The notes under the pieces were generated by a model. The model worked only from the letters and a program-made list of their open reading frames with translations, had not been told where the DNA came from and made no database searches. 40,847 bases of DNA, from the UHGV virus genome UHGV-0390358; one strand, 5' to 3'. The position numbers and the translations under genes were made by a program. The stretch comes from a virus. Positions 1,825-15,713 of this stretch are shown piece after piece (the first letter of the stretch is position 1; each line of letters opens with the position of its first letter).

Positions 1825-2511
1825 TCAGAAGACCCCTGCCTTGTCGTTGATGTATTCCGCGTGGGTCTGGATATCACGCAGGCATTTACTCACACCGACG
1901 ATGTAGCAGAACATGGTGGTCAGTTCCGCCGCCGCGCCCGATACGTCGTGCCCGTCTTCCTGTAACTGGTTCAGCAGATTCATCAGCAGTGAGTTCTCCG
2001 TCAGGCCGAGAACACCAGACGGCGAGTGAATCAAACTGCGGTAGCCGGGCTTCAGCGGGGCGCTGTAGGTGTTGTTCTCTATCTTCATTGCCTGCATCAC
2101 TGCTGACGCCGTGGCGTTGGCTACCTGGTCGGCAACCATCTTTATGCGTTCTTCCTGCGGGAGCGAGTTTTTAATGTAACTTCCGGTGCGGCGGATCTGA
2201 GGAAGAACCTCACCCGTAACCCATTTACGAAAGCGGTAGGGGATAGTGCCTGGTGTCACCGCATCGCGGCAGCGGAGGATCAGTGTGTAGAGGCCTGACT
2301 CGTTGATAATATTGGTTTCGCCTTGACGGCCTAAGTTAAATTTAGCCCTTTCATCATCATCAAGAGATTTTATTGACATAGTGGGGTTTGTCAGTTGAAG
2401 AGCTTTAATAACGTCTTTGGCAACAAACCAAGGATTTCCATCAATAACAATGGCTCGAATGGTTGCCTCTGATTCAAAATGAAAAACAGATGGGGTTACG
2501 TTAGCAGTCAT
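1825..2511 (-). CDS. Bro-N domain + KilA-C (phage antirepressor-type) domain protein
   Basis: N-terminal FHFESEATIRAIVIDGNPWFVAKDVIKAL matches the Bro-N signature; C-terminal domain is paralogous to the 3657..3914 protein; start taken at internal ATG 2511 (MTANV...) rather than the ORF-track start 2664. Confidence 0.65.
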   Translation of the reverse strand: MTANVTPSVFHFESEATIRAIVIDGNPWFVAKDVIKALQLTNPTMSIKSLDDDERAKFNLGRQGETNIINESGLYTLILRCRDAVTPGTIPYRFRKWVTGEVLPQIRRTGSYIKNSLPQEERIKMVADQVANATASAVMQAMKIENNTYSAPLKPGYRSLIHSPSGVLGLTENSLLMNLLNQLQEDGHDVSGAAAELTTMFCYIVGVSKCLRDIQTHAEYINDKAGVF

Positions 2512-2905: not shown

Positions 2906-3634
2906 ATGGAAGTTTTCTGGATAGTTGTTGGTGTGGTTGCGGTGATTATTTACGTTATCAACCAGAACAAGACTAAGATCTCTGATCGTACGGTCGTTAA
3001 TCAGAACAAAACGATAAAGACCGAAGATGGGGAGGTAACGATTAGTCGTACACAGGTGATAGAACACACATCTACTCAGTTTCAAAAAACTGGAGGTAAC
3101 GCGCCTGATATTTCCGTACCTCCTGCTTATGATAGTGCGGTAATCCAGACATATTATAAACAGCAGGAGTTTGCAAAAGAGAGGCAACTGATTCAGCCAA
3201 AGCCGTTTACAGCTGAGCTTCCACCTGGAGTGTCAACGCGTCCGGCATATCATGGAAGATTCCCTGGTGATGACATATCGTCTCAGTCATCTAAAAAAGC
3301 ACCTCAGGCAGTATCAGAGCCAGCAAGAATACCTTCTGTATCGCCGCCAAAAGAAGAATCAGCTAACAGAGTTTCAAGTGGCCGCAAGCAGTGTTTGCGA
3401 TGCAGAATAAACCTTCCATATGACAAATTCCGGAAATCGTCAAAAAATCCAGATGGATTGACTAAGTGGTGTGCAAGGTGTCTCGATGGCCCAAAGAATA
3501 CACGCCATATGAAGTGGTGCCCAATTTGTAATGTCCGCAGAAAACGGACCAGCTTTTACCCTAATAATCAAAATGCGGACGGCTTAATGGCATGGTGCAA
3601 AACGTGCTGGGACGAGCACAAAGCGAAACGATAG
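2906..3634 (+). CDS. Membrane-anchored protein with two C-terminal CxxC...CxxC zinc-ribbon-like repeats, unknown function
   Basis: ATG at 2906 with GAGGA ribosome-binding site; N-terminal TM helix; repeats CLRC..DGLTKWCARC and CPIC..DGLMAWCKTC; operator palindrome 2871-2885 immediately upstream. Confidence 0.6.
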   Translation: MEVFWIVVGVVAVIIYVINQNKTKISDRTVVNQNKTIKTEDGEVTISRTQVIEHTSTQFQKTGGNAPDISVPPAYDSAVIQTYYKQQEFAKERQLIQPKPFTAELPPGVSTRPAYHGRFPGDDISSQSSKKAPQAVSEPARIPSVSPPKEESANRVSSGRKQCLRCRINLPYDKFRKSSKNPDGLTKWCARCLDGPKNTRHMKWCPICNVRRKRTSFYPNNQNADGLMAWCKTCWDEHKAKR

Positions 3635-3656
3635 GCCGCTCTTGCGGCCTTTAAAT

Positions 3657-3914
3657 TTACCGGGTTTGTTTTCGTAATTGTTCGGCACAATAGTCGAGAT
3701 GTGTTTGCAGATCCTGCATAGACATCTGTGAGCTGGTGACGTAGTTAATCAGTGCAGTCAGTTCGGCAAGTGGGCCATCGACATTAAATCCATCCTTATC
3801 GAGATCTCGGAGTAATTTCATCAAGTGCGATCCCTCCACCAGTGACCTGACGCCTCCCGGCGTGTGAATCCTTTCGGTAAATCCGTTTTCCAGTGGATAG
3901 TGATACTGCTGCAT
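3657..3914 (-). CDS. Stand-alone KilA-C-like small protein; candidate SOS-inducible antirepressor
   Basis: Paralogous to the C-terminus of the 1825..2511 protein (HTPGGVRSLVEGSHLMKLLRDL... versus HSPSGVLGLTENSLLMNLLNQL...); GGAG ribosome-binding site favours the ATG at 3914 over 3929; LexA box 6 bp upstream. Confidence 0.6.
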   Translation of the reverse strand: MQQYHYPLENGFTERIHTPGGVRSLVEGSHLMKLLRDLDKDGFNVDGPLAELTALINYVTSSQMSMQDLQTHLDYCAEQLRKQTR

Positions 3915-3934
3915 CTTAATCTTCTCCATGCAAT

Positions 3935-3954
3935 AACTGTATATTTATACAGTA
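3935..3954. promoter_or_regulatory. LexA (SOS) box
   Basis: AACTGTATATTTATACAGTA, CTGT-N8-ACAG with AT-rich spacer, 15 of 16 core positions matching the E. coli consensus; overlaps a TATAAA -10-like hexamer of the leftward promoter. Confidence 0.7.
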
Positions 3955-4110
3955 GCAAATAATTTGTTTGCTATCCAGCACGTTTTGCAAATTACCTGAA
4001 AGGTAATATCTATTCGTATTTACAGCCTTTCTATCCATATGTGGTTTTTCAGGTAATAGAATAACCAGATATGCGGCGCAACGGGTGCTGCGACTATCTG
4101 GAGATTTAAC

Positions 4111-7100
4111 ATGACGGTCTCAACCGAAGTTGACCACAACGAATACACCGGTAACGGCGTTACGACATCGTTTCCGTATACTTTTCGAATTTTCAGAAAA
4201 TCAGACCTGGTTGTTCAGGTGTCTGACCTGAACGGGAACGTAACAGAATTGGTTCTGGATACCGGTTATACGGTAACTGGGGCGGGCACTTATAGTGGCG
4301 GTTCTGTGGTTCTTCCGTCTCCGCTTGCTACTGGATGGCGAATTACGATAGATCGTGTGCTTGATGTAGTGCAGGAGACAGACCTTCGCAATCAGGGAAA
4401 ATTTTTCCCCGAAGTGCATGAAGATGCCTTTGACTACCTGACGATGCTGATCCAGCAATGTTTTGGGTGGTTCAGACGTGCATTGATGAAACCATCTTTG
4501 CTTGCAAAATATTACGATGCAAAGCAAAACAAAATTTCTAACCTTGCAGATCCATCATTTGAGCAGGACGCTGTAAATAATCGCTCAATGCGTAATTATG
4601 TCGATGCTGCAATCGCCGGGGTTGTTGGTGGTTTTGGTTGGTTTATTCAGTATGGTTCTGGGGCTGTGTACCGAACGTTCCAGGATAAAATGCGTGATGC
4701 TATTAGCCCCAAAGATTTTGGAGCTGTTGGTGATGGTATAAATGACGATTCCACTGCAATAAGCGCGTGCCTTGAAGCCTCATCTCCAGTTTATAAAATT
4801 GACGGATTAGGGCTTACTTTTAAAGTATCAACTCTTCCGGATGTCAGTCGATTTAAAAATGCTCGTTTTTTATTTGAGAGAATACCGGGTCAGCCTCTTT
4901 TTTATGCTTCTGAAGATTTTATCCAGGGAGAGTTATTTAAAATTACAGATACACCGTGGTACAACGCCTGGACGCAGGATAAAACGTTTGTATATGACAA
5001 TGTCATCTATGCGCCTTTTATGGCTGGAGACCGCCATGGTGTAAATAACCTCCATGTTGCATGGGTTCGCTCAGGAGATGACGGGAAGACCTGGACAACG
5101 CCGGAATGGCTTACAGATTTACATGAAAACTATCCCACAGTTAACTATCACTGCATGTGTATGGGGGTTGTCAGAAATCGCCTTTTTGCTGTAATTGAGA
5201 CGCGGACCGTGAGCGGAAATAAACTGCAGGTTGCAGAGTTGTGGGATCGCCCAATGAGTCGCAGCCTTCGCGTTTATGGTGGTATAACGAAAGCAGCAAA
5301 TCAGCAAGTCGCTTATATTCGCATTACTGATCACGGATTATTTGCTGGTGATTTTGTCAACTTCTCAAACTCTGGTGTTACAGGTGTTACCGGGAATATG
5401 ACGGTGACTACTGTTATTGATAAAAATACTTTTACAGTTACGACGCAAAATACCCAGGATGTGGATCAGAATAACGAGGGTAGATACTGGAGTTTTGGTA
5501 CATCATTTCACTCTTCACCATGGAGAAAAACCAGTCTTGGAACTATTCCTTCTTTTGTTGACGGAAGCACTCCTGTTACTGAGATTCACAGTTTTGCGAC
5601 GATTAGCGATAACAGTTTTGCTGTTGGCTACCATAATGGTGATATTGGTCCACGCGAGCTTGGGATACTCTATTTCTCTGATGCTTTCGGTTCTCCTGGT
5701 AGCTTTGTTCGCAGACGCATACCTGCAGAATATGAGGCGAATGCATCTGAGCCATGTGTAAAATATTATGATGGCATTCTGTATCTGACGACCAGGGGGA
5801 CATTAAGTACTCAACCCGGTAGTTCATTGCACAGAAGCTCTGATTTAGGTACATCATGGAATTCTCTTCGCTTCCCAAATAATGTTCATCACTCAAACCT
5901 TCCTTTTGCCAAAGTTGGCGATGAGCTGATTATTTTTGGCAGTGAGCGCGCATTTGGTGAGTGGGAAGGAGGAGAGCCTGATAACCGTTATGCAGGAAAT
6001 TATCCAAGAACATTTATGACCAGAGTTAACGTCAATGAGTGGAGTCTGGATAATGTAGAGTGGGTTAATGTTACTGATCAGATTTATCAGGGCGGAATAG
6101 TTAACTCTGCGGTTGGTGTTGGTTCAGTTTGTATCAAAGACAACTGGCTGTACTACATTTTCGGTGGGGAAGACTTTCTAAACCCATGGAGCATAGGGGA
6201 TAACAACAGAAAATATCCTTATGTTCACGATGGTCACCCGGCTGATTTGTATTGTTTCAGGGTGAAAATTAAACAGGAAGAATTTGTTTCAAGGGATTTT
6301 GTCTACGGAGCCACTCCTAACAGAACGCTTCCTACTTTTATGTCGACGTCAGGCGTGAGGACGGTTCCTGTACCCGTTGATTTCACAGATGATGTTGCCG
6401 TCCAGTCACTGACTGTCCATGCAGGTACATCAGGACAAGTTCGCGCGGAAGTCAAACTTGAGGGTAATTACGCCATTATTGCGAAGAAAGTACCGTCTGA
6501 TGATGTTACCGCTCAGAGATTAATCGTTAGCGGCGGTGAAACAACGTCTTCAGCAGATGGTGCAATGATAACGTTGCATGGTTCCGGAAGCAGTACTCCA
6601 CGTCGCGCGGTATATAACGCACTCGAACATCTTTTTGAGAACGGAGATGTTAAACCTTATCTTGATAATGTAAATGCTCTTGGTGGTCCGGGAAACAGGT
6701 TCTCGACAGTTTATCTTGGCTCCAATCCTGTGGTTACCAGTGACGGAACATTAAAGACAGAGCCGGTCTCTCCTGACGAAGCATTGCTGGATGCCTGGGG
6801 TGACGTCAGGTATATCGCTTATAAATGGCTGAACGCTGTCGCTATAAAGGGGGAAGAAGGGGCGAGGATACATCATGGTGTAATCGCGCAGCAACTTCGT
6901 GATGTTCTTATTTCTCACGGACTCATGGAAGAAGAAAGCACAACATGCCGCTATGCCTTTCTTTGCTATGACGATTATCCCGCAGTATATGATGACGTCA
7001 TTACTGGCCAAAGGGAAATGCCGCTGACTGATAATGACGGGAGCATCATTGTTGATGAGGATGATAATCCAGTGATGGTAATGGAAGACATCATTGAGCG

Positions 7101-7230
7101 CGTTGAAATAACGCCAGCAGGATCTAGATGGGGGGTCAGACCTGATCTCTTATTCTATATCGAGGCAGCATGGCAGCGCAGAGAAATGGATAAGATAAAA
7201 GAGCGGATTCAGTCTCTGGAAGAACGTTAA
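4111..7230 (+). CDS. Tailspike endosialidase (endo-N-acetylneuraminidase) with C-terminal intramolecular chaperone domain
   Basis: 1039 aa; conserved podovirus tailspike N-terminal head-binding region; sialidase Asp-boxes SGDDGKTW and SSDLGTSW; C-terminal HGVIAQQLRDV... autoproteolytic chaperone-type domain. Confidence 0.85.
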   Translation: MTVSTEVDHNEYTGNGVTTSFPYTFRIFRKSDLVVQVSDLNGNVTELVLDTGYTVTGAGTYSGGSVVLPSPLATGWRITIDRVLDVVQETDLRNQGKFFPEVHEDAFDYLTMLIQQCFGWFRRALMKPSLLAKYYDAKQNKISNLADPSFEQDAVNNRSMRNYVDAAIAGVVGGFGWFIQYGSGAVYRTFQDKMRDAISPKDFGAVGDGINDDSTAISACLEASSPVYKIDGLGLTFKVSTLPDVSRFKNARFLFERIPGQPLFYASEDFIQGELFKITDTPWYNAWTQDKTFVYDNVIYAPFMAGDRHGVNNLHVAWVRSGDDGKTWTTPEWLTDLHENYPTVNYHCMCMGVVRNRLFAVIETRTVSGNKLQVAELWDRPMSRSLRVYGGITKAANQQVAYIRITDHGLFAGDFVNFSNSGVTGVTGNMTVTTVIDKNTFTVTTQNTQDVDQNNEGRYWSFGTSFHSSPWRKTSLGTIPSFVDGSTPVTEIHSFATISDNSFAVGYHNGDIGPRELGILYFSDAFGSPGSFVRRRIPAEYEANASEPCVKYYDGILYLTTRGTLSTQPGSSLHRSSDLGTSWNSLRFPNNVHHSNLPFAKVGDELIIFGSERAFGEWEGGEPDNRYAGNYPRTFMTRVNVNEWSLDNVEWVNVTDQIYQGGIVNSAVGVGSVCIKDNWLYYIFGGEDFLNPWSIGDNNRKYPYVHDGHPADLYCFRVKIKQEEFVSRDFVYGATPNRTLPTFMSTSGVRTVPVPVDFTDDVAVQSLTVHAGTSGQVRAEVKLEGNYAIIAKKVPSDDVTAQRLIVSGGETTSSADGAMITLHGSGSSTPRRAVYNALEHLFENGDVKPYLDNVNALGGPGNRFSTVYLGSNPVVTSDGTLKTEPVSPDEALLDAWGDVRYIAYKWLNAVAIKGEEGARIHHGVIAQQLRDVLISHGLMEEESTTCRYAFLCYDDYPAVYDDVITGQREMPLTDNDGSIIVDEDDNPVMVMEDIIERVEITPAGSRWGVRPDLLFYIEAAWQRREMDKIKERIQSLEER

Positions 7231-9349: not shown

Positions 9350-9354
9350 TTTCC

Positions 9355-9616
9355 GGTGACGGTATATGAAACGGTACGGGAAAAGTTGAGGCTTGGAAAA
9401 GTGTTATCACTCAATTGGTTATGGTTGTCGTAAATAATCGAGTGGGAATGATTAACAGCTAACTCATAGCAACTCATTCCTATTCAGATACCAATTTAAC
9501 CCTCTGTTTTTACAGAGGGTTTTTGTTTTTATGTATTCATTTCTATTCACTCTACACCATATTTTTCGTCGGTACAGGTGACGGTATTACCTTAAAGGTA
9601 TACTCTCATACCGTCA
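9355..9616. repeat. Candidate attP arm region: GGTGACGGTAT repeats upstream of the integrase gene
   Basis: GGTGACGGTAT at 9355-9365 and 9577-9587 (direct), inverted copy ATACCGTCA at 9608-9616; core site not identified. Confidence 0.3.
9499..9530 (+). terminator. Rho-independent terminator downstream of lysis cassette
   Basis: ACCCTCTG-ttttta-CAGAGGGT followed by TTTTTGTTTTT. Confidence 0.6.
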
Positions 9617-9643
9617 TGAAAATGGTTTCTATACGGGTGAATT

Positions 9644-10894
9644 GTGCTTACCGATACAAAATTAAAAAACCTCAAGCCGCAGGACAAACTGTACAAGGTC
9701 TCCGATCGTGACGGGCTGTATGTAGCTGTGCTTACGTCAGGCACGGTCTCGTTTCGCTATGACTACCGTATCAACGGTCGCCGCGAAACACTGGTAATCG
9801 GGCAGTATGGGCGTGACGGTATCAGCCTGGCAGAAGCGCGAGAAGAACTGATTGCTGCAAAGAAGCTGCTTAAAGCAGGCCAGTCACCGGCTGCGGCTAA
9901 ACGTGACGGTATCAAAAAGATTCGTGGTGCCGAGACGTTTGCGGTACATACCGACAGTTATATGAAACACGTCATCCTGGCTGACAGTACCCGCGCAATG
10001 AAACAGGCGGTGATCGACCGTGACATACTTCCGGTTCTTGGCAATAAAATGATGGCTGAAATTACCACATCGATGGTTCGTGATTTGTGTGACCGGATTG
10101 TCGAACGCGGTGGCCGGGCAACAGCAGTACAGGCCAGGGAGATCATCAGCAGCGTATACCGTCACGCCAATGACCGTGGTCATGGTTTGTTTAATCCTGC
10201 GGCTGACATTAAACCTTCGTCTATCGCCATATTTAAACCACGAGAGCGAACACTGACACCAGAAGAAATTGGCCTGTTCTTCCGCACGCTGGATGCCATT
10301 GGTGCTATGGGCACTATGAAAATGGCTTTAAAGCTGGTGCTTATCACTATGGTTCGTAAAGGCGAATTCACCAATGCAACGTGGGATGAAATAGATTTTA
10401 AAAAATGGACATGGACAATTCCTTCAGACCGCATGAAGGGAAGCCGGGCGCACGTTATTTACCTGCCTAAACAGGCACAGGATATATTGGTTGGGTTGCA
10501 GATGTGCGCTGGTGGAAGTGAATATCTGGTTCCTGGTCGTTACAATTTCCGGAAGCCATTATCTAATGCCGCGCTGAACTCTCTGATCGACAGAACGGTG
10601 AAAATAATAAATGAAGATGGTGAGCATATTCAGGACTTCACCGTACACGATATGCGCCGTACAGCCAGTACGTTGTTGCATGAGGCTGGTTATCCTTCAG
10701 ACTGGATTGAAAAGGCTCTGGCACATGAGCAGAAAGGTGTGCGCGCCGTATATAACAAAGCGGAATACGCCAGACAGCGCGCCTACATGTTGCAGCAGTG
10801 GGCCGATATGATTGATTCCTGGATTAACGGGGAGCATACGGATCTGATTCCGTTCTCCCCGTCGAAGTTTGAGAAGTGGATGGCGGGGGAATAA
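9644..10894 (+). CDS. int: Tyrosine site-specific integrase
   Basis: GTG start at 9644; N-terminal LTDTKLKNLKP...YRINGRRETLVIG arm-binding-type domain; C-terminal catalytic region HDMRRTASTLL...AVYNKAEY. Confidence 0.85.
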   Translation: MLTDTKLKNLKPQDKLYKVSDRDGLYVAVLTSGTVSFRYDYRINGRRETLVIGQYGRDGISLAEAREELIAAKKLLKAGQSPAAAKRDGIKKIRGAETFAVHTDSYMKHVILADSTRAMKQAVIDRDILPVLGNKMMAEITTSMVRDLCDRIVERGGRATAVQAREIISSVYRHANDRGHGLFNPAADIKPSSIAIFKPRERTLTPEEIGLFFRTLDAIGAMGTMKMALKLVLITMVRKGEFTNATWDEIDFKKWTWTIPSDRMKGSRAHVIYLPKQAQDILVGLQMCAGGSEYLVPGRYNFRKPLSNAALNSLIDRTVKIINEDGEHIQDFTVHDMRRTASTLLHEAGYPSDWIEKALAHEQKGVRAVYNKAEYARQRAYMLQQWADMIDSWINGEHTDLIPFSPSKFEKWMAGE

Positions 10895-10897
10895 CGT

Positions 10898-11092
10898 TTA
10901 ATTATTCTGCTGATTTTCTTCCATCTCGGCTTCTGCTGCCAGTGATTCAATTTTGTTTTCGAATATTGCTGACAGTGTTGCAAATTCAGCATCAGTGACA
11001 GCGGGAATTGGAACAAACCTGATCCCGCTGTGTGCAAGCATGTTTGCAGTTTCAAGGCATTTTCTTAAATCTGCTGGTGATGCCCTGTTCAT
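10898..11092 (-). CDS. Small acidic protein (64 aa), translationally coupled to the methyltransferase gene; alternatively a frameshifted methyltransferase C-terminus
   Basis: ATG at 11092 overlaps methyltransferase stop (ATGA); protein-like sequence ...IRFVPIPAVTDAEFATLSAIFENKIESLAAEAEMEENQQNN. Confidence 0.3.
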   Translation of the reverse strand: MNRASPADLRKCLETANMLAHSGIRFVPIPAVTDAEFATLSAIFENKIESLAAEAEMEENQQNN

Positions 11093-14821: not shown

Positions 14822-14840
14822 AACTTGTTACCTCGGTCTG

Positions 14841-14917
14841 TTACCGTTAAGGTAATAATTATGCTTATTTGGTTTGGTGTCAATAGATATGAGTTAAAAA
14901 AATTACCCGTAAGGTAA
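14841..14917. promoter_or_regulatory. Leftward early promoter region with two TTACC-N5-GGTAA operator palindromes
   Basis: TTACCgttaaGGTAA at 14841-14855 and TTACCcgtaaGGTAA at 14903-14917, between repressor terminator and first leftward gene. Confidence 0.55.
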
Positions 14918-14928
14918 TCTATCTGGCA

Positions 14929-14974: not shown

Positions 14975-15559
14975 TTATTGTTTGCTTTTTTCGTTCTGGT
15001 TGATGACAAATTCAATGTAACTTTCGATCTTTGCTTTCTCGGTTTCGGGTAACAATGCGTAGCGTGAGCGGTCATAGTTGATAGTCGCAGGGTCGTGCGG
15101 GTGAATCAGTAGTTCATATCCGTGACGCCCGAATGCGGATGCAACATTCTCCAGGGTGGAAATGGAAACGCTGACCTCATTGTTTAACAGGCGGCTGATT
15201 GTCACCTGGGCGACGCCGGATGCGCGGTGAAGTTTTCCCTGTGTTGAAAGGTCGCGGCTTTCGCTCATCCAGCGTTCCAGGTTGTGAGCCGCCAGCTGAC
15301 CTATATCGCTCGGGCCGACAGGCTGAAAACCCTCCTGAGAAAGCGAACGATCAATATCAAGCCAGTTACGGGGTTTATTGGCGGCAGCTTCAATTTTTCG
15401 TGCAACCTGGTCGCCGATAACCTTCTTGCCAAGAGCCCAGCGGTTTACCAGATTTGCCTGAGTTCCAAGTTTTTCTGCCATCCGCGTCTGAACACCATTG
15501 AATTCACGGTCGATCAAGTCGTTGAGATTTTGCCTGCGGACGTCCTGGATACTTTTCAT
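14975..15559 (-). CDS. Prophage repressor with two tandem XRE-type HTH domains and no peptidase S24 autocleavage domain
   Basis: 194 aa; HTH-like segments QTRMAEKLGTQANLVNRWALGK and VAQVTISRLLNNEVSVSISTLENVASAFG; divergent from Cro-like gene across an operator-containing region. Confidence 0.7.
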   Translation of the reverse strand: MKSIQDVRRQNLNDLIDREFNGVQTRMAEKLGTQANLVNRWALGKKVIGDQVARKIEAAANKPRNWLDIDRSLSQEGFQPVGPSDIGQLAAHNLERWMSESRDLSTQGKLHRASGVAQVTISRLLNNEVSVSISTLENVASAFGRHGYELLIHPHDPATINYDRSRYALLPETEKAKIESYIEFVINQNEKSKQ

Positions 15560-15614
15560 TTTCTGGAAAATCGCCTCATATATGAATCAGTAGATGATTC
15601 AATTTAAAGCAATA

Positions 15615-15677
15615 TTACCCAACAGGTAAATGCACCTCATAGGTAACTATCCTTGATTTTTGTTACCTTATGGGTGA
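15615..15677. promoter_or_regulatory. Divergent immunity-region operators (three TTACC-N5-GGTAA-type sites)
   Basis: TTACCcaacaGGTAA 15615-15629; gCACCtcataGGTAA 15632-15646; TTACCttatgGGTgA 15663-15677 overlapping a TTGTTA-N17-TATTAT promoter candidate for the Cro-like gene. Confidence 0.6.
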
Positions 15678-15713
15678 ATATTTATTATCTGAAATAAATA
15701 TCAGGCAATAGCT

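What the first reader, a model, noticed from the sequence alone, without database searches (positions are those of the whole stretch)
3657..3954. Near-consensus LexA box directly upstream of a stand-alone KilA-C gene: candidate SOS-triggered antirepressor
AACTGTATATTTATACAGTA (3935-3954) matches the CTGT-N8-ACAG LexA consensus and overlaps the TATAAA -10-like hexamer of the leftward promoter for the 85-aa KilA-C-domain protein. With a repressor lacking an autocleavage domain, this fits LexA-controlled antirepressor induction as described for Gifsy-type and some other prophages. An operator copy (3992-4006) lies just beyond, so the gene may be under dual LexA and phage repressor control.
Basis: partly seen in the sequence, partly recalled or inferred. 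Interest (0 to 1): 0.75.

Follow-up and report, generated by a model that had tools for sequence, protein, structure and literature searches.

The report
LexA-controlled phage antirepressor gene (known type)
This is the DNA-damage switch of an epsilon15-like E. coli phage: a host LexA binding site guards a small gene whose product disables the phage repressor. The same system has already been worked out in the sister Salmonella phage SPC32H, so it is real but ordinary.

Summary
AACTGTATATTTATACAGTA (3935-3954) matches the E. coli LexA consensus at 18 of 20 positions and is the only such site in the window. It lies 20 nt upstream of the ATG of an 85-aa gene (3657-3914, minus strand).

The window is an epsilon15-like (Uetakevirus) phage closest to phiV10, TL-2011b and vB_EcoP_ZX5. 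The small protein is 88% identical to Ant of Salmonella phage SPC32H (PDB 5D50 chain E). The 194-aa protein at 14975-15559 is a homologue of SPC32H Rep (5D50 chain A). It has HTH domains only and no S24 autocleavage domain.

The LexA box sits at the same position in every relative examined. It is intact in 83 of 87 loci. The constitutively lytic SPC32N differs from SPC32H by one C-to-A change in the ACAG arm.

Three details are not supported:
- The protein is not a KilA-C domain protein; Pfam gives no hit.
- The TATAAA -10 hexamer is not conserved.
- The palindrome at 3991-4007 belongs to a phage-wide operator family and more probably serves the tailspike promoter.

A second, Bro-N-fused Ant-like gene (1825-2511) lies nearby.

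The parts
3935..3954 (.). LexA (SOS) box AACTGTATATTTATACAGTA; core CTGT-N8-ACAG at 3937-3952
   Evidence: 18/20 to consensus and unique in the window. Same position in all Uetakevirus relatives. Arms intact in 83/87 loci.
3657..3914 (-). ant: 85-aa antirepressor, orthologue of SPC32H Ant. An alternative upstream ATG at 3929 would give 90 aa but has no Shine-Dalgarno sequence.
   Evidence: PDB 5D50_E, E=8e-47. 88% identity to SPC32H ant by tblastn. PHROG 450. Annotated as 85 aa in RefSeq and phiV10.
3924..3927 (-). Shine-Dalgarno GGAG, 9 nt before the ATG at 3914
   Evidence: Read from the sequence. GGAG is invariant in alignment A1.
3949..3977 (-). Candidate ant promoter: -35 TGGATA (3977-3972), 17-nt spacer, extended -10 TG (3957-3956) plus TACTGT (3954-3949). 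The -10 is the left arm of the LexA box.
   Evidence: Position-conserved in 7/10 phages. TG is invariant while the following base varies (C/A/T) across E. coli loci. The consensus scan found no strong sigma-70 site. Prediction only.
3991..4007 (.). Perfect palindrome ATTACCTGAAAGGTAAT, a member of the phage-wide putative Rep operator family
   Evidence: 17 sites against 1.1 expected. Arms invariant in A1. The homologous site is annotated 'repressor binding' in the epsilon15 GenBank record. The same motif flanks rep in SPC32H.
4034..4062 (+). Candidate tailspike/late promoter TCCATA-17-TAGAAT. Its -10 is overlapped by the operator half-site GGTAAT (4052-4057).
   Evidence: Position-conserved in 10/10 phages. 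Prediction only.
3633..3650 (.). GC-rich hairpin between the convergent genes 2906-3634(+) and ant(-); likely a bidirectional terminator
   Evidence: Terminator scan. epsilon15 annotates a terminator at the equivalent place.
14975..15559 (-). rep: 194-aa phage repressor with two HTH regions and no S24 peptidase domain; the presumed target of Ant
   Evidence: PDB 5D50_A, E=3.5e-42. 43.8% identity to SPC32H Rep. 99.5% identity to phiV10/ZX5 Rep. Pfam finds HTH_3 only.
15614..15678 (.). Operator pair in the rep-cro intergenic region (15614-15630 and 15662-15678)
14840..14918 (.). Operator pair downstream of rep, upstream of the leftward early operon (14840-14856 and 14902-14918)
   Evidence: Three equivalent sites are annotated in epsilon15.
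1825..2511 (-). Second antirepressor candidate: a Bro-N domain fused to a C-terminal Ant-like domain (40% identical to Ant)
   Evidence: 81% identical to vB_EcoP_ZX5 ORF4, and identical over the C-terminal half except at two residues. Overexpression of ZX5 ORF4 lowered lysogeny (PMC9782041).

Best explanation
This is the SOS-responsive induction module of an epsilon15-like (Uetakevirus) temperate phage. It is orthologous to the LexA-Ant-Rep switch of Salmonella phage SPC32H.

In the lysogen, Rep (14975-15559) binds the ATTACC-N5-GGTAAT operators in front of the lytic operons. Rep has no RecA-stimulated autocleavage domain. Host LexA sits on the box at 3935-3954, which overlaps the -10 and start region of the leftward ant promoter, and keeps ant silent.

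DNA damage activates RecA, LexA cleaves itself, and ant is transcribed. The 85-aa Ant then assembles with Rep. In SPC32H an Ant tetramer binds two Rep dimers and breaks up the DNA-binding Rep tetramer. Rep leaves its operators and lytic genes are expressed.

Shown here:
- the near-consensus box and its conservation;
- the orthology of Ant and Rep to the solved SPC32H proteins;
- the absence of an S24 domain;
- the operator family.

Inferred by homology: LexA binding, SOS dependence, and the Ant-Rep contact in this particular phage.
For: - Ant matches PDB 5D50 chain E ('Anti-repressor protein') at E=8e-47 and is 88% identical to SPC32H ant.
- Rep matches 5D50 chain A at E=3.5e-42. Its only Pfam domains are HTH.
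- Synteny is the same in phiV10, SPC32H, epsilon15, Tyrion, BUCT554 and the Klebsiella phages: ant lies divergent from the tailspike gene.
- The LexA box is at the same alignment columns in all ten phages. In 83 of 87 loci CTGT-N8-ACAG is intact 19-20 nt before the ATG, and variation is confined to the spacer.
- SPC32N differs from SPC32H in this 3.2-kb segment at two bases only. One is a C-to-A change in the ACAG arm. This agrees with my recollection of Kim & Ryu 2013 (PMID 23986584; the paper is not held) that a LexA-box point mutation makes Ant constitutive.
- Secondary literature describes Ant as made after LexA self-cleavage (PMC7380047) and as a tetramer that binds two Rep dimers (PMC9638917; PMC9986798).
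- Close E. coli relatives are inducible by mitomycin C (ZX5 titre rises from 1e7 to 1e9 PFU/mL, PMC9782041) and by a DNA-damaging microcin (bioRxiv 10.64898/2026.05.26.727859).
Against: - No experiment exists on this phage or, in the literature held here, on any E. coli member.
- Rep is only 43.8% identical to SPC32H Rep while Ant is 88% identical, so the Ant-Rep contact is extrapolated.
- No strong sigma-70 consensus promoter was found by the scan. The promoter assignment rests on conservation alone.
- The only functional study of a near-identical phage (ZX5) attributes antirepressor activity to the Bro-N protein and does not mention the small gene or LexA.
- The primary SPC32H papers could not be read here.
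Confidence: 0.9

Rival explanations
1. Dual control. ant is repressed both by LexA at 3935-3954 and by phage Rep at the palindrome 3991-4007, so full expression needs both to leave.
For: The palindrome is a perfect member of the operator family and lies only 37 bp from the LexA box. Its arms are invariant in all relatives.
Against: Its centre is about 57 bp upstream of the predicted ant start and 14 bp upstream of the -35 candidate, a poor position for repression. A half-site 50 bp away overlaps the -10 of a rightward promoter candidate conserved in 10/10 phages. This mirrors the roughly 49-bp operator pair in the rep-cro region. That suggests the pair controls the tailspike/lysis operon. There is also a logical problem: an antirepressor repressed by its own target could not start induction unless the repression were leaky.
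Confidence: 0.2
2. The operative antirepressor of this phage is the Bro-N::Ant-like fusion (1825-2511), as proposed for ZX5 ORF4. The small LexA-controlled gene would be redundant or act mainly on heteroimmune relatives.
For: ZX5 ORF4 is 81% identical to the window protein, and identical over the C-terminal half except at two residues. Its overexpression reduced lysogens from 1e9 to 1e6. Its C-terminal domain is 40-42% identical to Ant.
Against: The fusion gene has no LexA box. Its promoter-like site is overlapped by a Rep-type operator, so it cannot sense SOS by itself. It is absent from SPC32H and epsilon15 and truncated in phiV10, whereas the small ant and its LexA box are universal.
Confidence: 0.12
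3. The LexA box controls rightward transcription into the tailspike and lysis genes, instead of or in addition to ant.
For: The AT-rich palindrome also reads as a weak rightward promoter (TTAATC-18-TATATT, 8/12, seen in 6/10 phages).
Against: The -35 would lie inside the ant coding sequence. Any AT-rich palindrome gives -10-like hexamers on both strands. A much better conserved rightward promoter candidate lies 90 bp further on. The SPC32N phenotype is attributed to Ant (GenBank gene name; my own knowledge of PMID 23986584).
Confidence: 0.07
4. The LexA-like sequence is a chance AT-rich palindrome with no function.
For: None beyond the general frequency of AT-rich sequence in intergenic DNA.
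Against: No site within 3 mismatches occurred in 100 shuffles. The PWM score is 26.1 bits against a mean best shuffle score of 12.7 and a highest of 21.4. The arms are conserved while the spacer varies across 83 loci and four host genera.
Confidence: 0.01

Closest known systems
SPC32H Ant / Rep / LexA antirepression switch (Kim & Ryu 2013, PMID 23986584; Kim et al. 2016, PMID 27099293; PDB 5D50, 5D4Z)
   Same: Same genus (Uetakevirus), same gene order (ant divergent from the tailspike gene) and Ant 88% identical. The LexA box is at the same distance from the start codon. Rep is homologous and lacks S24. The same ATTACC-N5-GGTAAT palindromes flank rep.
   Different: Host is E. coli rather than Salmonella. 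Rep is only 43.8% identical, so probably a different immunity type. The LexA box is closer to consensus (2 mismatches against 3). An extra accessory block, including a Bro-N::Ant-like fusion, lies next to ant; SPC32H lacks it.
vB_EcoP_ZX5 ORF4 'anti-repressor' (PMC9782041)
   Same: Nearly the same phage: Rep 99.5% and Ant 98.8% identical. ORF4 corresponds to the window's Bro-N protein at 1825-2511.
   Different: That study tested the Bro-N fusion only. The small ant is annotated as hypothetical there, and LexA is never mentioned.
Coliphage 186 Tum and Gifsy-1/-3 GfoA/GfhA (LexA-controlled antirepressors; PMC3121763)
   Same: Same logic: a non-cleavable repressor, and a small antirepressor whose promoter is repressed by host LexA.
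   Different: No detectable sequence relationship; no Pfam, NCBIfam or PHROG link. These are myo- and siphovirus lineages. Ant acts on the Rep tetramer through the Rep C-terminal domain rather than by the mechanisms described for Tum.
P22 immI antirepressor Ant
   Same: The antirepressor gene sits immediately upstream of the tailspike gene of a short-tailed temperate phage.
   Different: From my own knowledge, P22 Ant is about 300 aa, is controlled by the phage Mnt and Arc repressors rather than LexA, and is not needed for SOS induction because C2 is cleavable. No homology was found here.
KilA-C / ANT domain (Pfam PF03374), often fused C-terminal to Bro-N
   Same: The Ant-like domain occupies the C-terminal position after Bro-N in the paralogue 1825-2511, the place where KilA-C is often found.
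   Different: No PF03374 match for Ant, for the fusion, or for any of 120 homologues.

Membership tests
SPC32H-type LexA-Ant-Rep antirepression module | Small (~85 aa) protein homologous to SPC32H Ant | tested here: met
   PDB 5D50_E, E=8e-47, aligned over 83 residues; 88% identity.
SPC32H-type LexA-Ant-Rep antirepression module | Cognate repressor homologous to SPC32H Rep and lacking a RecA-dependent autocleavage (S24) domain | tested here: met
   5D50_A, E=3.5e-42; Pfam finds HTH families only; 43.8% identity overall.
SPC32H-type LexA-Ant-Rep antirepression module | LexA box immediately upstream of ant, overlapping its promoter | tested here: met
   The box aligns column for column with the SPC32H box, whose C-to-A mutant is SPC32N; 19-20 nt before the ATG in 86/87 loci. 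The overlap with the promoter is predicted only.
SPC32H-type LexA-Ant-Rep antirepression module | Synteny: ant lies between the virion-gene block and the divergent tailspike gene of a Uetakevirus | tested here: met
SPC32H-type LexA-Ant-Rep antirepression module | LexA binds the site, and ant is induced by SOS | not testable with these tools
   Needs EMSA or footprinting, and RT-qPCR in lexA+ versus lexA(Ind-) hosts.
SPC32H-type LexA-Ant-Rep antirepression module | Ant binds Rep and releases it from the operator | not testable with these tools
   Inferred from the 5D50 complex. The N-terminal (52%) and extreme C-terminal (54%) parts of Rep are better conserved than the middle (about 31%).
KilA-C / ANT domain (Pfam PF03374) | Significant match to the PF03374 profile | tested here: not met
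   No hit at E<=1 for Ant or for the Bro-N fusion. None in ZX5, Tyrion or phiV10 fusions. No precomputed Pfam domain in any of 120 homologues.
186 Tum / DinI-like antirepressors | Sequence homology to Tum, which has a DinI-like C-terminal domain | tested here: not met
   No Pfam or NCBIfam hit of any kind. The resemblance is functional only.
E. coli-type SOS (LexA) box | Palindrome CTGT-N8-ACAG with an AT-rich spacer, close to TACTGTATATATATACAGTA | tested here: met
   18/20 match. PWM score 26.1 bits, at or above the recalled chromosomal boxes used to build the matrix.
Rep operator family ATTACC-N5-GGTAAT | Site 3991-4007 matches the palindrome found around rep and before the lytic operons | tested here: met
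   Perfect match; 17 sites against 1.1 expected. The same motif flanks SPC32H rep. Annotated as repressor binding in epsilon15. That Rep is the protein that binds it is not tested.

The most novel reading that the evidence does not exclude
A two-stage 'trigger and latch' antirepression circuit built from paralogous Ant domains. The LexA-gated small Ant would start Rep inactivation. This would then derepress the Bro-N::Ant-like fusion (1825-2511), whose promoter-like site is overlapped by a Rep-type operator. The fusion would supply a second, SOS-independent Rep antagonist that makes induction irreversible.

A related possibility follows from Ant being 88% conserved across phages whose Reps are only about 43% identical. 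Ant might act in trans on heteroimmune Uetakevirus prophages.
Probability: 0.2. Interest if true: 0.45.

Novelty: already known. Interest (0 to 1): 0.15.

Why it matters
- Annotation. The gene is labelled 'hypothetical protein' in RefSeq and in every E. coli phage record seen. Yet the region occurs in 531 of 5426 complete E. coli genomes, and no Pfam or NCBIfam model covers it. Transferring the SPC32H annotation would name the SOS sensor of a common prophage family.
- Induction. It explains why phiV10-like prophages are induced by mitomycin C and by DNA-damaging microcins.
- A correction to the literature. The only functional study of a near-identical E. coli phage (ZX5) assigned antirepression to the Bro-N protein and overlooked this gene and LexA.
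- Prediction. This particular phage carries an endosialidase tailspike and so probably targets K1 capsule. The switch predicts when such a prophage is released.
- No new biology is implied.

Tried and rejected
- KilA-C assignment: rejected. There are no PF03374 hits for Ant, for the fusion paralogues, or for any homologue.
- TATAAA as the -10: not adopted. With TAGCAA at 18 nt it scores 8/12. It is matched at that position in only 4/10 relatives, and phiV10 has TGTATT there.
- Consensus promoter scan of 3500-4200: found nothing at 9/12 or better.
- Other CTGT-N8-ACAG sites (24400, 28942): rejected as LexA boxes. Their spacers are GC-rich, and only 24400 is even among the eight best PWM hits, at a background-level 12.3 bits.
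- Primary papers: PMC3807360 / 10.1128/JVI.02173-13, PMC4983836 and the epsilon15 genome paper PMC2698709 are not held. What I say about their content comes from memory and from citing papers.
- Source of the window: E. coli chromosome NZ_CP031215 is 100% identical over 3640-4115, but there the prophage ends after the Rz-like gene and host genes follow. The window continues in phage order.
- Apparent natural LexA-box losses: three were checked. Two are contig-end artefacts (a Nextera adapter in L026 and truncation in L054). One (L029) is a real replacement of the left arm.
- A fold-level test against KilA-C was considered and not run, because an 88%-identical solved structure already exists.

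Full report
**What is in the sequence**

The stated sequence is present at 3935-3954. It has two mismatches to the 20-bp E. coli SOS-box consensus. It is the only site in the 40.8-kb window within three mismatches, and none occurred in 100 dinucleotide-preserving shuffles.

The looser pattern CTGT-N8-ACAG occurs three times against 0.52 expected. The other two have GC-rich spacers; the only one among the eight best hits of the weight matrix (24400) scores at background level. I built that matrix from chromosomal SOS boxes recalled from memory. It gives 26.1 bits for the box, 13.4 for the next best site, and a mean best score of 12.7 in shuffles.

On the minus strand the box is followed by TTATTGC, then ATG (3929), then GGAGAAGATTAAG, then ATG (3914). 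The first ATG has no ribosome-binding site. The second has GGAG at 9-nt spacing. RefSeq and phiV10 annotate the 85-aa product.

**What the window is**

The region matches Uetakevirus (epsilon15-like) phages at 95-99% DNA identity. These include TL-2011b, phiV10, vB_EcoP_ZX5, phiv142-3 and the O157 typing phages 9 and 10. It matches the Salmonella members at about 77%.

The gene order is the same in all of them: virion gene block, then the small gene on the opposite strand, then the divergent tailspike gene. Here the tailspike carries endosialidase domains and an S74 chaperone.

**What the small protein is**

Pfam gives no KilA-C/ANT hit. The only hit at E<=1 is a sub-threshold DUF724 match. 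NCBIfam gives nothing meaningful. PHROGs places the protein in phrog_450 (unknown function), with a weak match to the C-terminal end of an 'anti-repressor' family.

Against solved structures it matches one entry only. That is chain E of 5D50, 'Anti-repressor protein', at E=8e-47 over 83 residues. By tblastn it is 88% identical to the gene named ant in SPC32H and SPC32N.

It contains only helix-turn-helix domains, with no S24 peptidase. It is 43.8% identical to SPC32H Rep and 99.5% identical to the phiV10 and ZX5 repressors.

None of 120 database homologues of the small protein carries any Pfam domain. A few UniRef entries are named 'Anti-repressor protein'.

**Is the LexA box conserved?**

I aligned the ant-tailspike intergenic region of ten phages from Escherichia, Salmonella, Enterobacter and Klebsiella. 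The box falls in the same columns in all ten:

| Phage | Box (ant-sense strand) |
|---|---|
| window | TACTGTATAAATATACAGTT |
| phiV10 | TACTGTGTATTTATACAGTT |
| SPC32H | TACTGTATGTTTATACAGTG |
| epsilon15 | TACTGTATGTTTATACAGTA |
| Tyrion | TACTGTATAAGCATACAGTG |
| BUCT554 | TACTGTACATATATACAGTG |
| Klebsiella phages | ATATGTATATATATACAGTA or ATATGTATATACATACAGTA |

Across 87 loci, including 80 IMG/VR contigs, 83 keep CTGT-N8-ACAG 19-20 nt before the ATG, and variation is confined to the spacer. Of the four exceptions:
- Two are contig-end artefacts.
- One is a genuine replacement of the left arm.
- One is SPC32N.

SPC32N differs from SPC32H at only two bases in the 3.2-kb segment fetched. 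One of these is a C-to-A change in the ACAG arm. This fits my recollection of Kim & Ryu 2013 (PMID 23986584), which I could not read here. As I recall it:
- The two phages differ by two nucleotides.
- Rep is not cleaved during SOS.
- Ant is repressed by LexA.
- The LexA-box point mutation makes Ant constitutive and the phage lytic.

Papers that are held agree in outline. Ant is made after LexA self-cleavage (PMC7380047). [quoted passage not shown] The C-terminal tetramerisation domain of Rep is the Ant contact (PMC9986798).

**Promoter**

The consensus scan found no sigma-70 site at 9/12 or better between 3500 and 4200.

I scanned the ten aligned sequences for position-conserved candidates. 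It is supported in only four phages.

A candidate shared by seven phages is TGGATA (3977-3972), a 17-nt spacer, then TG-n-TACTGT (TG at 3957-3956, -10 at 3954-3949). Across about 80 E. coli loci the TG is invariant while the next base is C, A or T. That is the pattern expected of an extended -10.

Either way the box covers the -10 or start region, so LexA occupancy should block initiation. This is prediction only.

**The 'operator copy'**

ATTACCTGAAAGGTAAT at 3991-4007 is a perfect palindrome. The pattern ATTACC-N5-GGTAAT with two or fewer mismatches occurs 17 times against 1.1 expected. By position relative to the ORFs, about 15 of these are intergenic. They lie:
- on both sides of rep (14840, 14902, 15614, plus a weaker 15662);
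- after cro;
- before the replication, terminase and portal blocks;
- before the Bro-N gene.

The same motif flanks rep in SPC32H, with three sites on each side. The homologous epsilon15 sites, including the one upstream of gp19, are annotated 'protein_bind: repressor' in GenBank. That Rep is the protein that binds the motif remains an inference.

Whether this site controls ant is doubtful. It is centred about 57 bp upstream of the predicted ant start. Fifty base pairs to its right, a half-site (GGTAAT, 4052-4057) overlaps the -10 of a rightward promoter candidate, TCCATA-17-TAGAAT (4034-4062). That candidate is conserved in all ten phages. The spacing resembles the roughly 49-bp operator pair between rep and cro. 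I therefore assign the palindrome primarily to tailspike/late-operon control and give dual control of ant about 0.2.

**Mechanism**

In the lysogen, Rep tetramers occupy the palindromes and LexA occupies 3935-3954. DNA damage leads to activated RecA and then to LexA self-cleavage (established SOS biology). ant is then transcribed. Ant binds Rep and releases it from DNA, as seen in the 5D50 complex for SPC32H, and lytic transcription follows.

Shown here:
- the site, and its conservation under apparent selection;
- the orthology of both proteins to the solved pair;
- the absence of an autocleavage domain;
- the operator family.

Inferred: every binding event in this phage.

Supporting phenomenology comes from close relatives. 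ZX5 lysogens rise from 1e7 to 1e9 PFU/mL with mitomycin C (PMC9782041). phiV10-species prophages are induced 21- to 47-fold by a DNA-damaging microcin.

**A second Ant domain**

The gene at 1825-2511 (minus strand) encodes a Bro-N domain followed by a C-terminal region 40% identical to Ant over 82 residues. It is 81% identical to ZX5 ORF4, and identical over the C-terminal half except at two residues. ORF4 is the protein that the ZX5 paper overexpressed and called the anti-repressor. That paper does not mention LexA, and the ZX5 record annotates the small ant as hypothetical.

The same fusion exists in Tyrion and is truncated in phiV10. SPC32H and epsilon15 lack it.

Its promoter-like site (TTGATT-18-TATCAT, 2821-2792) is overlapped by an operator (2777-2793). 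A second operator lies at 2870-2886, and the roughly 280-nt leader holds a terminator-like hairpin. It has no LexA box.

This arrangement allows, but does not show, a trigger-and-latch design in which Ant starts induction and the Rep-controlled fusion reinforces it.

**Comparison with known systems, and novelty**

The module meets every sequence-testable criterion of the SPC32H LexA-Ant-Rep switch. It fails the test for KilA-C. It shows no sequence link to 186 Tum; I did not compare it directly with the Gifsy antirepressors. It works like these but does not appear to belong to their families.

The system is already known for this phage genus, including a crystal structure. The E. coli copies are common, present in 531 of 5426 complete genomes, but unannotated.

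Interest is low (0.15). Its value lies in annotation, and in pointing out that the E. coli literature has overlooked the LexA-gated gene.

Noticed in passing
window 1825-2511 (-), upstream region 2512-2905: A Bro-N domain protein has a C-terminal 82 aa that are 40% identical to Ant. It is a fusion paralogue, 81% identical to ZX5 ORF4 'anti-repressor'. Its promoter-like site (2821-2792) is overlapped by a Rep-type operator (2777-2793), and a second operator lies at 2870-2886. A terminator-like hairpin (2684-2671) sits inside the long leader.
   Followed up: partly
window-wide: 1743, 2777, 2870, 3991, 9586, 14840, 14902, 15614, 15999, 17907, 17969, 21360, 21378, 24311, 24929: The palindrome ATTACC-N5-GGTAAT is dispersed in front of nearly every operon (17 sites against 1.1 expected). 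Sites often come in pairs 49-62 bp apart. The same motif occurs in SPC32H and epsilon15 although Rep is only about 43% identical.
   Followed up: partly
window 4111-7230 (+): The tailspike combines an epsilon15-type N-terminal adaptor with endosialidase beta-propeller, beta-barrel and stalk domains and an S74 intramolecular chaperone. This points to a K1-capsule-specific Uetakevirus. E. coli relatives carry many different receptor-binding modules at this position (GH28, SGNH/GDSL, beta-helix).
   Followed up: no
window 2906-3634 (+): A 242-aa protein of unknown function (phrog_6762) lies between the Bro-N gene and ant. Its C-terminal region shows weak matches to Stc1 and to endonuclease VII / HNH-type families.
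   Followed up: no
window 9350-10900 versus L013 (NZ_CP031215.1): The window is in circular phage order: lysis genes run straight into the integrase gene at 9644-10894. In the E. coli ST80 chromosome, which is 100% identical over 3640-4115, the prophage ends after the Rz-like gene and yfgI follows. This is consistent with integration at the 3' end of guaA, as reported for ZX5.
   Followed up: partly
L029 (IMGVR_UViG_2563366870_000004), about 1140-1180: In one natural variant the left arm of the LexA box and everything upstream is replaced by unrelated DNA, leaving ...CATAAACATACAGTT before ant. It may be an insertion or rearrangement that uncouples ant from LexA.
   Followed up: no
L003 versus L004 (SPC32H versus SPC32N), locus positions 1284 and 1471: The two phages differ at two bases in this 3.2-kb segment. 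One lies near the 5' end of the tailspike gene. The other is the C-to-A change in the ACAG arm of the LexA box.
   Followed up: yes
window 3915-3923: The window and a minority of E. coli loci have a 1-nt insertion between the Shine-Dalgarno sequence and the ATG (GATTAAG against GATAAG). This places the LexA box 20 nt rather than 19 nt from the start codon.
   Followed up: no
window 15575-15592: The rep-cro intergenic region contains CATATATGAATCAG. This resembles the conserved block AACC-N2-ATATG(A/G)AT upstream of the tailspike gene (4030-4045), which holds the -35 of the rightward promoter candidate. The two regions may share promoter architecture.
   Followed up: no
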